Part shown: positions 23,782 to 28,549 of the stretch, piece by piece | How positions within the stretch are numbered: the stretch's first letter is position 1 | How the letters are laid out: each line of letters begins with the position of its first letter | DNA from: Escherichia coli | GTDB taxonomy: Bacteria > Pseudomonadota > Gammaproteobacteria > Enterobacterales > Enterobacteriaceae | Length of the DNA: 28,549 nt | Strand: one strand, 5' to 3' | NCBI RefSeq assembly: GCF_003334385.1 | Contig: NZ_QOWN01000056.1 | Notes under the pieces: model-generated | Told to the model about the DNA's origin: nothing | The model's input: the letters and a program-made list of their open reading frames with translations, nothing else | Databases searched by the model: none | Position numbers and translations under genes: made by a program

Positions 23782-23987
23782 ACTTCCTGAGCCGGAACGA
23801 AAAGTTTTATCGGAATGCGTGTTCTGGTGAACTTTTGGCTTACGGTTGTGATGTTGTGTTGTTGTGTTTGCAATTGGTCTGCGATTCAGACCATGGTAGC
23901 AAAGCTACCTTTTTTCACTTCCTGTACATTTACCCTGTCTGTCCATAGTGATTAATGTAGCACCGCCTAATTGCGGTGCTTTTTTTT
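23782..23987 (+). ncRNA. gcvB: GcvB small RNA (~206 nt), divergent from gcvA
   Basis: Sequence ACTTCCTGAGCCGGAACGAAAAGTTTTATCGGAATGCGTGTTCTGGTGAACTTTTGGCTTACGGTTGTGATGTTGTGTTGTTGTGTTTGCAATTGG... including the G/U-rich seed region, ending in hairpin gcaccgc-ctaatt-gcggtgc plus a T7-8 run; -10 tatagt at 23770..23775. Confidence 0.88.
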
Positions 23988-26121: not shown

Positions 26122-26928
26122 TTAACCCTGACGCGCCGCTTTCGCCATCATCTTCTTCAGCGCATGAGAAACCGCAACAAACCCAAAGGTGGCGGTCACC
26201 ATCGTTGCCGCGCCAAATCCAGATGCACAATCCATCCGCTTCGGCCCTTCTGCCGTGGCTTTCATCGCACACACCGTACCGTCTGACTGCGGGTACACCA
26301 GCGCTTCAGTAGAAAACACGCAATCCACGCCGAGCTTACCTTTACTGTTTTTCACTACGCCAAAATCGCTTTTCAGGCGCTCGCGCAACTTCGCCGCCAG
26401 CGGGTCCTGAATCGTTTTCGCCAGATCGGTAACCTGAATCTGCGTCGGATCAATCTGCCCACCCGCGCCACCGGTTGTGACCAGTGGGATTTTATTGCGC
26501 CGACAATAAGCAATCAGCGCCGCTTTGGGCCGTACACTATCAATGGCATCAATCACGTACGAATAACCCACGCTCATATACTGCGCTACGTTATCCGGCG
26601 TCACGAAATCATCCACCACCGTTACACGGCACTCCGGGTTAATCTGGCGAATACGCTCCGCCATAACTTCCGCTTTTGCCAGCCCAACGTTATCGCGCAG
26701 GGCATGAATTTGCCGATTGGTATTGGTGACGCACACATCATCCATATCGATAAGCGTGATTGCGCCAATCCCCGTGCGCGCCAGCGCTTCCGCCGCCCAG
26801 GAACCGACACCACCGATACCAACCACACAAATATGCGCGTCAGCAAACAGTTGCAACGCTTTTTCACCATACAGACGCGCTGTGCCACCAAAACGCTGAC
26901 GCCATGCATCACTAATTACCACAGACAT
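26122..26928 (-). CDS. tcdA: tRNA threonylcarbamoyladenosine dehydratase TcdA (CsdL/YgdL; 268 aa)
   Basis: ORF MSVVISDAWRQRFGGTARLYGEKALQLFADAHICVVGIGGVGSWAAEALARTGIG... (ThiF/MoeB E1-like fold). Confidence 0.9.
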   Translation of the reverse strand: MSVVISDAWRQRFGGTARLYGEKALQLFADAHICVVGIGGVGSWAAEALARTGIGAITLIDMDDVCVTNTNRQIHALRDNVGLAKAEVMAERIRQINPECRVTVVDDFVTPDNVAQYMSVGYSYVIDAIDSVRPKAALIAYCRRNKIPLVTTGGAGGQIDPTQIQVTDLAKTIQDPLAAKLRERLKSDFGVVKNSKGKLGVDCVFSTEALVYPQSDGTVCAMKATAEGPKRMDCASGFGAATMVTATFGFVAVSHALKKMMAKAARQG

Positions 26929-26981
26929 AGCACCTCAGAATTAAAAAGGGCGAGGTTATCCCTCACCCTAAACGCATAAAT

Positions 26982-27010
26982 GCCTGATGCGCTACGCTTA
27001 TCAGGCCTAC
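26982..27010. repeat. REP element (gcctgatgcgctacgcttatcaggcctac)
   Basis: Canonical E. coli REP palindrome motif. Confidence 0.7.
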
Positions 27011-27044
27011 ATAACTCCTGCAATATTTTGGATTTGCATGATTT

Positions 27045-27078
27045 GTAGGCCGGATAAGGCGTTCACGCCGCATCCGGC
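27045..27078. repeat. REP element (gtaggccggataaggcgttcacgccgcatccggc), inverted relative to the first; together a BIME-like pair
   Basis: Canonical REP motif; the REP pair lies between the mltA stop and the tcdA start. Confidence 0.7.
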
Positions 27079-27166
27079 ATGAACAACGCGCACTTAGTCA
27101 ATAATCAGGATGTGAGGTTACCCCTCACCCTGTCATATCCGTAAAAACGGCATACAGAATATCACA

Positions 27167-28264
27167 TCAGCCGCTAAAGACGTTACCTGCGCCCGGGGCG
27201 GTTTTCAGCACCCAGACACGTCCATAGTGGTTGTACCAACCTGCGCGGTGTCCGGCTTCCGGCCCGATCCCTTGATAGATATCGAAGTGTTGGCCTTTGA
27301 TTGCACCACCGACATCCAGCGCCACCATCAGACGCAGTTCGTACTGACCATTAAATTTGCCGTTATTATCCAGCAACGGCACTTCTGCCAGCAAGGTAGT
27401 ACCTGGCGGAATAATGGAACGATCAGAGGCAACTGACGCGCGACCAACCAGCGGCACCGCACTTGCCCCTTTCACCGGAGCAAAAGATTGCGGTTTAAAG
27501 AAGACGAAAGACGGGTTCTGTTCCAGCAGCTCGCGAACCTCGGCTTCACTGTGTGTTTCGCCCCAGTGACGAATCGCCTGCATCGACATATCTTCTTTTT
27601 TCACTTCGCCACGGTCGATCAGCACCTTACCAATGCTGCGATAGGCATGACCGTTTTTCCCTGCATAGCTGAAAAAGTTAAGCGGACTGCCATCACCAAA
27701 GTCGATATACCCACTACCCTGCACATCCATAATGAAGTTATCCATCAGGGAGTTACTGTAAGCGAGAATATATTTATCACTCAATGCCCCCGCGTAGATC
27801 TCCGCACGAGACGGCAGACGACCACGTTTTGGCGGCATACGGTAAATAGGATACTGGAACTCGCCCTGGCGGGTATGGCGCGCCTGAATTACCGGCGTGT
27901 AATAACCGGTAAACTGCACGTTACCATAGTTGTCGGCACCTTCCATCTGCCAGGCATCAATGCCGAACTGGCGCATATTGCGGGTATCACCGCCTGCGCG
28001 CAGCCACTCTTGCACCGCGTTATAAACATTACTCTGGTTGCCATACAGACGCGGTGACGAATTACGGATATGGTTAATTTGCTCGGCAAAATCACCGGCG
28101 TTAATCGGCGCGCCAACGGCATCTGGCTGGTTCACCAGAGAGAAAGGCTGGGTAAATTTCCCGTCTTTATATTGCTGTCCGCGATCGGTTGGTTTGGAAG
28201 AGCAGGCGGCAAGCATTGCCACAACCGTGCCCATAAGAAGGTACTTTACCCAACGTCCTTTCAT
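27167..28264 (-). CDS. mltA: Membrane-bound lytic murein transglycosylase A, MltA (365 aa, lipoprotein)
   Basis: ORF ...MKGRWVKYLLMGTVVAMLAACSSKPTDRGQQYKDG... with lipobox LAAC; the open frame extends upstream to 28546 but the internal ATG at 28262..28264 with a signal peptide is the credible start. Confidence 0.9.
   Translation of the reverse strand: MKGRWVKYLLMGTVVAMLAACSSKPTDRGQQYKDGKFTQPFSLVNQPDAVGAPINAGDFAEQINHIRNSSPRLYGNQSNVYNAVQEWLRAGGDTRNMRQFGIDAWQMEGADNYGNVQFTGYYTPVIQARHTRQGEFQYPIYRMPPKRGRLPSRAEIYAGALSDKYILAYSNSLMDNFIMDVQGSGYIDFGDGSPLNFFSYAGKNGHAYRSIGKVLIDRGEVKKEDMSMQAIRHWGETHSEAEVRELLEQNPSFVFFKPQSFAPVKGASAVPLVGRASVASDRSIIPPGTTLLAEVPLLDNNGKFNGQYELRLMVALDVGGAIKGQHFDIYQGIGPEAGHRAGWYNHYGRVWVLKTAPGAGNVFSG

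Positions 28265-28472: not shown

Positions 28473-28549
<77 letters not shown>

What the first reader, a model, noticed from the sequence alone, without database searches (positions are those of the whole stretch)
26952..27131. 18-bp direct repeats bracketing a REP pair between mltA and tcdA
gaggttatccctcaccct (26952..26969) and gaggttacccctcaccct (27114..27131) differ at one position and flank a ~145-bp segment with two oppositely oriented REP elements. Each copy is itself partly palindromic (gagg...cctc). A direct repeat this long is not expected by chance; it could be a duplicated insertion target left by REP/BIME acquisition, a repeated regulator site for the tcdA promoter, or a pair of recombination sites.
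Basis: seen in the sequence. Interest (0 to 1): 0.4.

Follow-up and report, generated by a model that had tools for sequence, protein, structure and literature searches.

The report
Terminator hairpin duplicated around a BIME-1
The two 18-base repeats are two copies of the terminator hairpin of mltA, duplicated on either side of an inserted BIME-1 repeat element; the element is long known, but whole-hairpin duplications beside many other BIME-1 copies may show how these elements insert.

Summary
GAGGTTAYCCCTCACCCT occurs at 26952-26969 and 27114-27131 and nowhere else in the window. The copies bracket 144 bp: a Y REP, a long linker and an inverted Z1 REP, which is a BIME-1.

On the minus strand, copy 1 belongs to a 9-bp-stem hairpin followed by a T-run, 20 nt before the tcdA start codon. 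This is the mltA terminator.

Evidence that the repeat is a target duplication:
- About half of 5,426 complete E. coli genomes carry this allele. The sampled others are exactly 162 bp shorter, with one hairpin and no BIME-1.
- Salmonella has the same single hairpin and no BIME-1.
- E. albertii and two divergent Escherichia lineages share the same insertion junction.
- E. coli O157:H7 OK1 has two 162-bp units. Escherichia sp. MOD1-EC7003 has at least five. The repeats therefore also drive deletion and amplification.

The pattern is general. Of 32 independent solo BIME-1 loci, 8 to 12 are flanked by direct copies of a different local hairpin (16-26 bp) abutting the element ends.

I found no support for a regulator site or a dedicated recombination site. 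The element and its presence/absence polymorphism are known. The hairpin-sized duplication may be under-described, and how it forms is inferred.

The parts
26122..26928 (-). tcdA (ygdL) coding sequence. Its start codon is 20 nt downstream of the hairpin, and its GAGG ribosome-binding site is at 26933-26936.
   Evidence: ORF list. RefSeq annotation of identical DNA.
26942..26969 (-). Intrinsic-terminator-like hairpin AGGGTGAGG-GATAA-CCTCGCCCT (26969..26947) plus its T-run (26946..26942). This is the conserved, presumably functional copy and it contains repeat copy 1.
   Evidence: Terminator scan. RNA fold of -17.2 kcal/mol, z-score -4.6. A homologous single hairpin lies before tcdA in Salmonella.
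26952..26969 (.). Direct repeat copy 1 (R1), GAGGTTATCCCTCACCCT.
26970..26981 (+). Remnant of the BIME-1 left end motif (AAACGCATAAAT). The consensus left end GAGACTGATGACAAACGCAAAAyT is about 12 nt longer, so this end is truncated.
   Evidence: Comparison with 29-32 other BIME-1 copies.
26982..27010 (+). Y-type REP (palindromic unit), GCCTGATGCGCTACGCTTATCAGGCCTAC.
   Evidence: Inverted-repeat pairs I2 and I4.
27011..27044 (+). Long (L) linker of the BIME-1. Its IHF-like core is degenerate (ATCCAAAATATTG on the minus strand, 2 mismatches to WATCAANNNNTTR). The Rfam ES036/CssrF match lies here.
27045..27081 (+). Z1-type REP in inverted orientation (GTAGGCCGGATAAGGCGTTCACGCCGCATCCGGCATG).
   Evidence: Pairs I2 and I3.
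27082..27113 (+). BIME-1 right end motif (AACAACGCGCACTTAGTCAATAATCAGGATGT). The consensus is AACAAaGCGCACTTTGTCAACAATCTGA, an imperfect inverted repeat of the left end.
   Evidence: The motif recurs at the rsmS-mscK BIME-1 and in the loci. End consensus.
27114..27131 (.). Direct repeat copy 2 (R2), GAGGTTACCCCTCACCCT, readable as 27112-27131. On the minus strand it forms a weaker hairpin with no T-run. It is the non-conserved duplicate.
   Evidence: Fold of -14.7 kcal/mol followed by AUCCUGAUUAUU. Decayed in E. albertii.
26970..27131 (.). The 162-bp unit (BIME-1 plus one repeat copy) that is absent, single, double or multiple among Escherichia genomes.
   Evidence: Alignment A1. Tandem arrays of period 162 in L076 and L096.
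27167..28264 (-). mltA coding sequence. Its stop codon lies 35 nt upstream, in the direction of transcription, of repeat copy 2.
   Evidence: RefSeq annotation. ORF list.

Best explanation
The two 18-mers are a target-site duplication. The ancestral mltA-tcdA spacer held one intrinsic-terminator hairpin just upstream of the tcdA ribosome-binding site. A BIME-1 inserted at the foot of that hairpin in an ancestor of Escherichia, and 18-20 bp of the hairpin ended up on both sides of it. A BIME-1 is a Y REP, an L linker and an inverted Z1 REP with imperfect inverted-repeat ends; it is also called a RIP, RIB or REPIN-type element.

The copy next to tcdA kept its full stem and T-run and still looks like the terminator or attenuator. 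The copy next to mltA is a by-product that is free to decay.

Since then the two copies have served as passive substrates for slipped or unequal recombination. This removes the 162-bp unit precisely, giving one-copy alleles, or amplifies it, giving two to at least five units.

Shown here: the anatomy, the allele series, the single-hairpin outgroup, and the same hairpin duplication at many other BIME-1 loci.

Inferred: how the duplication is made. My preferred mechanism is structure-directed staggered cleavage at the two feet of the target hairpin or cruciform, followed by fill-in. The stagger, and so the duplication, would then equal the hairpin. The enzyme could be the REP-associated Y1 transposase, because the BIME-1 ends carry C|TGA motifs like its reported cleavage sites.
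For: Anatomy.

Allele series in E. coli:
- 2,752 of 5,426 complete genomes cover the full query. In the spread sample, the other chromosomal alleles span 338-339 bp instead of 501 bp.
- Four fetched short alleles contain exactly one hairpin and no REP, and show no footprint.
- O157:H7 OK1 has 2.1 units and three 18-mers.
- Escherichia sp. MOD1-EC7003 has at least 4.8 units of period 162, and the array continues on another contig.

Outgroup: Salmonella enterica has one homologous hairpin, AGGGGTGAGGAATAACCTCGCC followed by a T-run, then the same RBS and ATG. It has no BIME-1 and no second copy.

One old insertion: E. albertii, E. coli SCPM-O-B-8794 and MOD1-EC7003 share the same truncated left junction (R1|AAACGC[A/G]TAAAT), although their tcdA-side flanks differ from the window by 5-9%.

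The 18-mer is not part of the element or of a dispersed family:
- The 30-mer around R2 has a median of 1 and at most 2 places per E. coli genome.
- Every exact 18-mer match among the 96 fetched loci lies at this locus.

Generality:
- In 32 non-redundant solo BIME-1 loci, left and right flanks were aligned against each other. Eight score 12-23 and four more score 10. Mismatched flank pairs give a mean of 6.4, a 99th percentile of 10 and a maximum of 13 (n=992).
- In most of these loci the repeat abuts the consensus element ends and is a whole local hairpin of 16-26 bp.
- In the 29 of these loci with enough flanking sequence, 22 have a strong hairpin abutting at least one end. Windows 60 nt further out give 4 (left) and 1 (right) of 29 (Mann-Whitney p=8e-6).
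- At rsmS-mscK, 3,881 genomes have the BIME-1 flanked by two hairpin copies. Two sampled short alleles, 170 bp shorter, have one hairpin.
- Tandem arrays read hairpin-BIME-hairpin-BIME-hairpin.

Link to the transposase: Ton-Hoang et al. 2012 (PMC3333891) report TnpA_REP cleavage at CC|T or C|T, including TGCC|TGAT. The BIME-1 ends read GAGAC|TGATGAC and CAATC|TGA.
Against: - IS200/IS605-type Y1 transposases, the relatives of the REP-associated transposase, insert single-stranded DNA without making target duplications (PMC3333891 and PMC2817692). A hairpin-sized duplication is therefore not predicted by the accepted model.
- Only about 25-40% of solo BIME-1 loci show a recognisable duplication. 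Others have a hairpin on one side only. The duplication is either not obligatory or is often lost.
- At this locus the left end of the element is about 12 nt short and the duplication covers 18-20 of the 23 hairpin bases. It is not a textbook example.
- Within E. coli, polarity is unresolved. The one-copy alleles could be secondary precise deletions, as the shared old junction suggests, or retained ancestral alleles.
- No transcript or termination data were examined, so the terminator role of copy 1 rests on sequence, fold and conservation.
Confidence: 0.85

Rival explanations
1. The duplication comes from replication or repair rather than from a transposase. A polymerase stalls in the terminator hairpin, the nascent strand switches to a BIME-1 template elsewhere, copies about 145 nt, and returns upstream of the hairpin. 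The hairpin is then copied twice. Repair of a resolved cruciform, whose two ends each keep the whole palindrome, would give the same product.
For: - The duplication length follows the hairpin length (16-26 bp) rather than being fixed, which fits a structure-dependent process.
- The BIME-1 ends at this locus are irregular: the left end is truncated and the right end is CAATAATCAGGATGT.
- Y1 transposases are not expected to make duplications.
Against: - In the clean cases the element ends fall at the same consensus positions: 24 nt before the Y REP and 14-17 nt after GCGCAC. This argues for defined element termini rather than random switch points.
- No donor flanking sequence or junction microhomology was seen in the junctions I inspected.
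Confidence: 0.25
2. The two hairpin copies existed before the BIME-1 as a tandem terminator pair, and the element simply landed between them.
For: BIME-1 ends usually abut hairpins, so hairpins attract insertions.
Against: - Salmonella and all sampled BIME-free E. coli alleles have one copy, not two.
- The same arrangement with different hairpins recurs at 8-12 other loci. That would require pre-existing tandem hairpins everywhere.
Confidence: 0.04
3. The repeats are paired binding sites for a regulator of tcdA, or sites for a dedicated site-specific recombinase that flips or excises the REP pair.
For: - The two copies are nearly identical in K-12 (17 of 18) and identical in E. coli SCPM-O-B-8794.
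- Precise loss and gain of the 162-bp unit occurs.
Against: - Copy 2 is missing in about half of E. coli and has decayed in E. albertii.
- No promoter-like site was found nearby.
- The repeats are direct and differ in sequence from locus to locus, so no common recognition site exists.
- The one-copy alleles carry three different combinations at the two variable positions (T-C, T-T and C-T). That suggests, but does not prove, exchange by homology rather than at one fixed site.
Confidence: 0.03

Closest known systems
BIME-1 (also called RIP or RIB elements) of E. coli: Y REP, L linker and Z1 REP
   Same: Same parts in the same order and orientation. It is extragenic, at the 3' end of a transcription unit, and single-copy in K-12. 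Its linker and end motifs align with dozens of other BIME-1 copies (definition quoted from PMC3333891).
   Different: The IHF core in the linker is degenerate here (2 mismatches) and the left end motif is about 12 nt short. None of the descriptions I could read mention flanking hairpin duplications.
BIME-1 presence/absence ('excision') polymorphism among E. coli isolates (Bachellier et al. 1997, Genetics 145:551, as summarised in PMC1187871)
   Same: A whole BIME-1 is present or absent between strains at a fixed locus. This is exactly what searches show for mltA-tcdA and rsmS-mscK.
   Different: I could not open the 1997 paper. I therefore cannot say whether it noted that the deleted segment is bounded by duplicated hairpins, or whether it examined this locus. 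The 2-unit and 5-or-more-unit alleles are the reciprocal products.
REPIN-RAYT systems (REP doublets mobilised by a single-copy Y1 transposase)
   Same: An inverted REP doublet with a spacer. Tandem clusters repeat the doublet together with its flanking sequence, as reported for Pseudomonas (PMC3116915) and seen here.
   Different: The proposed IS200/IS605-like single-strand mechanism makes no target duplication. Here 16-26 bp hairpin duplications flank many copies.
MITEs with terminal inverted repeats and target-site duplications
   Same: About 150 bp, non-coding, with imperfect terminal inverted repeats (AGAyTGwTGACAAA) and flanking direct repeats whose single copy is found at empty sites.
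   Different: MITE duplications are short and of fixed length, set by a DDE transposase. Here the length varies with the target hairpin. A review states that REPs lack MITE signatures (PMC3184786).
Deletion and tandem duplication between short direct repeats (slipped misalignment or unequal exchange)
   Same: Alleles with 0, 1, 2 and at least 5 units, with the unit length equal to the repeat spacing of 162 bp.
   Different: Nothing unusual. Dependence on RecA was not tested.
BIME-associated candidate attenuator upstream of ygdL (Naville and Gautheret 2010, PMC2965389)
   Same: The same locus: ygdL is tcdA. That screen flagged a premature terminator preceded by BIME sequence.
   Different: The present analysis shows that the terminator predates the BIME and is conserved without it in Salmonella and in half of E. 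coli. The BIME is therefore not an integral part of any attenuator.

Membership tests
BIME-1 | One Y REP and one Z1 REP in opposite orientation | tested here: met
   The Y REP is at 26982-27010 and the inverted Z REP core at 27049-27078 (pair I2). Calling it Z1 rather than Z2 rests on the short GGCGTTCACGCC centre, recalled from the literature, and on identity to other single-copy BIME-1 loci.
BIME-1 | A long, conserved L linker between the two REPs | tested here: met
   The 34-nt linker 27011-27044 aligns with ...TGCAATATATTGAATTTGCA... of the other copies.
BIME-1 | An IHF binding site in the linker (frequent, not obligatory) | tested here: inconclusive
   The best match to WATCAANNNNTTR has 2 mismatches (ATCCAAAATATTG). 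The consensus linker has 1 mismatch. Binding was not tested.
BIME-1 | Extragenic and a single unit per locus (not a tandem BIME-2-like array) | tested here: met
   It lies between mltA and tcdA as one unit in the window. Arrays occur in other strains.
Target-site duplication of a mobile element | Direct repeats abut the element ends | tested here: met
   R1 ends at 26969 and the element starts at 26970. The element ends at 27111-27113 and R2 starts at 27112-27114.
Target-site duplication of a mobile element | Empty sites carry exactly one copy and no element | tested here: met
   Alignment A1 of four E. coli alleles. About half of 5,426 genomes lack the full-length allele. Salmonella has one copy.
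Target-site duplication of a mobile element | Other copies of the element are flanked by duplications of their own, different, targets | tested here: met
   8-12 of 32 solo loci, against a mismatched-flank null. The rsmS-mscK short alleles have one hairpin.
Target-site duplication of a mobile element | A fixed duplication length characteristic of the transposase | tested here: not met
   Lengths of 16-26 bp follow the size of the target hairpin.
REPIN mobilised by a RAYT (TnpA_REP) | Mobilisation depends on the REP-associated Y1 transposase | not testable with these tools
   The only link is indirect: the element ends carry C|TGA, like the reported cleavage sites.
Intrinsic (Rho-independent) terminator | A GC-rich stem-loop followed by a T-run on the transcribed strand, downstream of a gene | tested here: met
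   Copy 1 on the minus strand has a 9-bp stem, a 5-nt loop and TTTTT, with a fold energy of -17.2 kcal/mol. It is conserved in Salmonella. Actual termination was not measured.
Regulator operator pair or site-specific recombination sites | Both copies conserved wherever the regulated gene or the system is present | tested here: not met
   Copy 2 is absent in about half of E. coli and matches only 14 of 20 bases in E. albertii.

The most novel reading that the evidence does not exclude
BIME-1 elements (the E. coli REPINs) behave like MITEs with imperfect terminal inverted repeats. They insert at the foot of GC-rich terminator hairpins and duplicate the entire hairpin, so the target duplication is defined by structure and varies in length (16-26 bp). 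If this is unreported, it contradicts the duplication-free, IS200/IS605-like model assumed for REP and REPIN spread. It would point to symmetric cleavage at both feet of an extruded hairpin or cruciform, or to hairpin-stalled template switching, as the integration step. It would also explain how tandem hairpin-BIME arrays and precise 'excisions' arise.
Probability: 0.35. Interest if true: 0.65.

Novelty: already known. Interest (0 to 1): 0.4.

Why it matters
For this locus the result is tidy rather than surprising. A known repeat element sits in the mltA terminator, and the 18-mers record its insertion. They also explain why the 162-bp unit comes and goes among strains.

The wider interest is mechanistic. 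How REP, BIME and REPIN elements integrate has never been shown, and the favoured transposase family leaves no target duplication. A recurrent duplication of whole target hairpins is a concrete constraint on that mechanism, and it can be tested.

It also has practical consequences:
- Such loci are built-in hotspots for precise deletion and tandem amplification.
- They create spare terminator-like hairpins in 3' UTRs.
- They can mislead screens for attenuators or small RNAs. Examples are the ygdL 'attenuator' cluster and the Rfam ES036 match on the linker.

Tried and rejected
- **Dispersed repeat family.** I asked whether the 18-mer belongs to one. A 30-mer BLAST around R2 against all complete E. 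coli genomes gave a median of 1 and a maximum of 2 places per genome. At E<=10 its sensitivity is about 19-20 nt or more, so an isolated exact 18-mer would be missed. All exact matches in the 96 fetched loci are at this locus. Rejected, with that caveat.
- **Donor locus.** I looked for a donor sharing the 32-nt non-REP segment 27082-27113. It is not unique flanking DNA but the conserved BIME-1 end motif, shared with rsmS-mscK and many other loci.
- **barA-gudD as a second empty-site test**. This was not clean. K-12 carries an oppositely oriented BIME at the same hairpin, so I used rsmS-mscK instead.
- **Counting arrays in E. coli.** A synthetic 72-nt junction query was used. The '>=80% covered' count is inflated because the tool joins the R1-side and R2-side pieces. 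Only single-piece hits, such as O157:H7 OK1, are true 2-unit alleles.
- **Promoter scan** of 26700-27400 found nothing.
- **Literature.** Bachellier 1997 and Gilson 1991 are not held. Two searches failed for technical reasons and one was malformed. Searches linking REPIN or BIME with target duplications or terminator duplication returned nothing relevant.
- **Atlantibacter** has an unrelated hairpin and gave no information on polarity.
- The single genome-contig scan went to a BIME-1 motif rather than the 18-mer, so E. fergusonii and other close outgroups were not examined.

Full report
**Observation**

The window reads gaggttatccctcaccct at 26952-26969 and gaggttacccctcaccct at 27114-27131. 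With up to three mismatches allowed these are the only two matches in 28.5 kb. The chance expectation is 0.02, and none of 100 shuffles gave two matches. The repeat finder returns the same pair, with starts 162 bp apart.

The flanking genes are tcdA (26122-26928) and mltA (27167-28264), both on the minus strand.

**Anatomy**

The 144 bp between the copies (26970-27113) contain, in order:
- a short left end motif (AAACGCATAAAT);
- a Y-type REP (26982-27010);
- a 34-nt linker;
- an inverted Z1-type REP (core 27049-27078);
- a 32-nt right end motif.

This is the BIME-1 architecture as defined in Ton-Hoang et al. 2012: z1 plus y, single copy, long conserved L linker (PMC3333891). The IHF-like core of the linker is degenerate in this copy.

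In the direction of transcription (minus strand), copy 1 is most of a hairpin, AGGGTGAGG-GATAA-CCTCGCCCT, followed by TTTTT (-17.2 kcal/mol). The hairpin lies 20 nt upstream of the tcdA ATG and just before its GAGG ribosome-binding site. Copy 2, next to the mltA stop codon, forms a weaker hairpin with no T-run.

**Allele series at this locus**

A 501-bp query across the spacer matched all 5,426 complete E. coli genomes. Of these, 2,752 carry the full-length allele. In an evenly spaced sample of the ranking, every other chromosomal allele spans 338-339 bp instead of 501 bp, shorter by the repeat spacing of 162 bp.

Four such alleles were fetched: ST131 O25b, O111:NM and two others. Each has exactly one hairpin, no REP and no footprint. 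They are polymorphic at the same two positions that distinguish the two copies in the window. When the preceding GT is included, the repeat can be read as 20 bp.

The reciprocal product also exists:
- E. coli O157:H7 OK1 has three 18-mers and two BIME-1 units, 2.1 copies of a 162-bp period at 99% identity.
- Escherichia sp. MOD1-EC7003 has at least 4.8 units before the fetched stretch ends, with more on another contig.

**Polarity**

Salmonella enterica has a single homologous hairpin, AGGGGTGAGGAATAACCTCGCC followed by a T-run. The same ATTCTGAGGT..ATG leader follows it. There is no BIME-1 and no second copy. A single terminator hairpin is therefore ancestral.

E. albertii, E. coli SCPM-O-B-8794 and MOD1-EC7003 all share the peculiar truncated left junction (hairpin|AAACGC[A/G]TAAAT). 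Their tcdA-side flanks differ from the window by 5-9%. This points to one old insertion in the Escherichia lineage.

In E. albertii copy 2 has decayed to 14 of 20 matches and part of the right end motif is lost. Copy 2 is therefore dispensable.

Under this reading the one-copy alleles within E. coli are most simply later precise deletions between the repeats. This matches the 'excisions of a whole BIME-1' attributed to Bachellier et al. 1997 (PMC1187871). Retained ancestral alleles cannot be excluded with the data I have.

**The 18-mer is not part of the element or of another repeat family**

- The 30-mer around copy 2 has one place per genome (maximum two) in E. coli. The search would detect matches of about 19-20 nt or more.
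- Among 96 fetched loci, all exact 18-mer matches lie at mltA-tcdA.
- The 32 nt to the right of the Z1 REP, by contrast, is a shared BIME-1 end motif.

**The same thing happens at other BIME-1 loci**

A scan of one genome per species for the motif CCGGCATGAACAAMGCGCAC returned BIME-1 copies from E. albertii, E. whittamii, two E. coli-like genomes, two unnamed Escherichia species and Pseudocitrobacter.

For 32 non-redundant solo copies I aligned the 90 nt left of the Y REP with the 90 nt right of the motif:
- Mismatched flank pairs (n=992) score a mean of 6.4, a 99th percentile of 10 and a maximum of 13.
- Eight loci score 12-23 and four more score 10.
- In most of them the repeat abuts the consensus element ends. 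These ends lie 24 nt before the Y REP and 14-17 nt after the motif.
- Each repeat is a complete local GC-rich hairpin of 16-26 bp. Where A- and T-runs are present, the left copy keeps the A-run and the right copy keeps the T-run.

In the 29 loci with enough flanking sequence, 22 have a strong hairpin against at least one end and 10 against both. Windows 60 nt further out give 4 and 1 of 29 (p=8e-6).

At rsmS-mscK, 3,881 E. coli genomes have a BIME-1 between two hairpin copies. Two sampled short alleles, 170 bp shorter, have one hairpin.

Many tandem arrays read hairpin-BIME-hairpin-BIME-hairpin.

The element ends are GAGACTGATGACAAACGCAAAAyT... and ...GCGCACTTTGTCAACAATCTGA. They are imperfect inverted repeats of each other.

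**How it most likely works**

Shown: a BIME-1 inserted at the foot of the mltA terminator and the hairpin became duplicated. The tcdA-proximal copy retains all terminator features and is the one conserved across genera. The two copies now mediate precise loss and tandem gain of the 162-bp unit.

Inferred: how the duplication forms. Its length follows the hairpin rather than being fixed. I therefore favour structure-directed cleavage at the two feet of the extruded hairpin or cruciform, one cut per strand, followed by joining of the element and fill-in.

The BIME-1 ends carry C|TGA, which resembles the TnpA_REP cleavage sites reported by Ton-Hoang et al.. That enzyme is the obvious candidate.

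The main rival is hairpin-stalled template switching or repair of a resolved cruciform.

Against the transposase idea, IS200/IS605-type enzymes are described as making no target repeats. In addition, only 25-40% of solo copies show a recognisable duplication.

**Other readings**

A regulator-site pair is not supported. Copy 2 is missing or decayed in many lineages, and no promoter-like site is nearby.

A dedicated recombination system is not indicated. The flanking repeats differ at every locus. The one-copy alleles also carry three different combinations at the two variable positions, which suggests but does not prove exchange by homology rather than at a fixed site.

Naville and Gautheret 2010 listed ygdL (tcdA) in a BIME-related 'attenuator' cluster. 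Here the terminator is older than the BIME and exists without it.

**Comparison with what is known, and novelty**

The element is a BIME-1, and whole-BIME-1 presence/absence between strains is established. The locus is therefore already known in kind.

I could not find any statement that BIME-1 or REPIN copies are bounded by duplications of whole target hairpins. One review says REPs lack MITE signatures. The key older papers are not held, so I leave this open. I give a 35% probability that the pattern is genuinely undescribed and mechanistically informative.

**Verdict**

Overall interest is modest, at 0.4. It is higher if the hairpin-duplication rule proves new.

Noticed in passing
window 27003-27045 (-): Rfam RF02751 (ES036/CssrF sRNA) matches above its gathering score (46.5 bits against 37.6). 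The match lies exactly on the BIME-1 L linker, so that family may simply model a repeated BIME-1 linker rather than a distinct sRNA gene.
   Followed up: no
L005:1-400 (E. coli O26 RM10386, rsmS-mscK spacer): An IS621 (IS110-family) transposase gene sits where the Y-REP half of this BIME-1 should be. Only the linker, the Z1 REP and the right-hand hairpin remain. This fits the known habit of such IS elements of targeting REPs.
   Followed up: no
L065:700-2000, L061:11500-12400, L057, L069-L071, L078, L080 (Escherichia sp. MOD1-EC7003): This genome carries many tandem BIME-1 arrays of about 160-bp period, with up to 8 units. One spacer hairpin (GGCCGGGTTCGGCCT and variants) recurs inside arrays at several different loci and is the flanking duplication at L063. 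This suggests a hairpin can be carried along with the element.
   Followed up: partly
L090:780-1010 (K-12) versus L028:3040-3260 (E. coli SCPM-O-B-8794), barA-gudD spacer: The same terminator hairpin is occupied by BIMEs in opposite orientations in the two genomes, each with hairpin-like copies on both sides. This is either an insertion hotspot or an inversion.
   Followed up: partly
L096:465-806 (E. coli O157:H7 OK1): A two-unit allele of the mltA-tcdA BIME-1 with three copies of the 18-mer. The middle copy is the C variant, as expected from unequal exchange between copy 1 and copy 2.
   Followed up: yes
L093:1405-1445 (Salmonella enterica, mltA-tcdA spacer): A different palindrome (GCCCGATAACGCGATCGCTATCGGGC) lies between the mltA stop codon and the conserved terminator. 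It may be a Salmonella-type REP at the equivalent position.
   Followed up: no
window 26897-26911 (-): A second terminator-like hit (TGATGCATGGCGTCA followed by GCGTTTTGGT) lies inside the first codons of tcdA. It is weak (6-bp stem with 3 GC pairs) and is probably a chance match.
   Followed up: no
window 5242-5601 (-), 23782-23987 (+), 28473-28546 (+): CsrB, GcvB and a tRNA were found by Rfam. K-12 has tRNA-Met genes just beyond mltA, so the tRNA is probably one of them. These are ordinary landmarks that place the window in the csrB to gcvB-csdAE-tcdA-mltA region of E. coli.
   Followed up: no
consensus of L008-L089 BIME-1 ends: The BIME-1 termini read GAGAC|TGATGAC and CAATC|TGA. Both contain the C|TGA(T) motif reported as a TnpA_REP cleavage site. 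They are also imperfect inverted repeats (AGAyTGwTGACAAA).
   Followed up: partly
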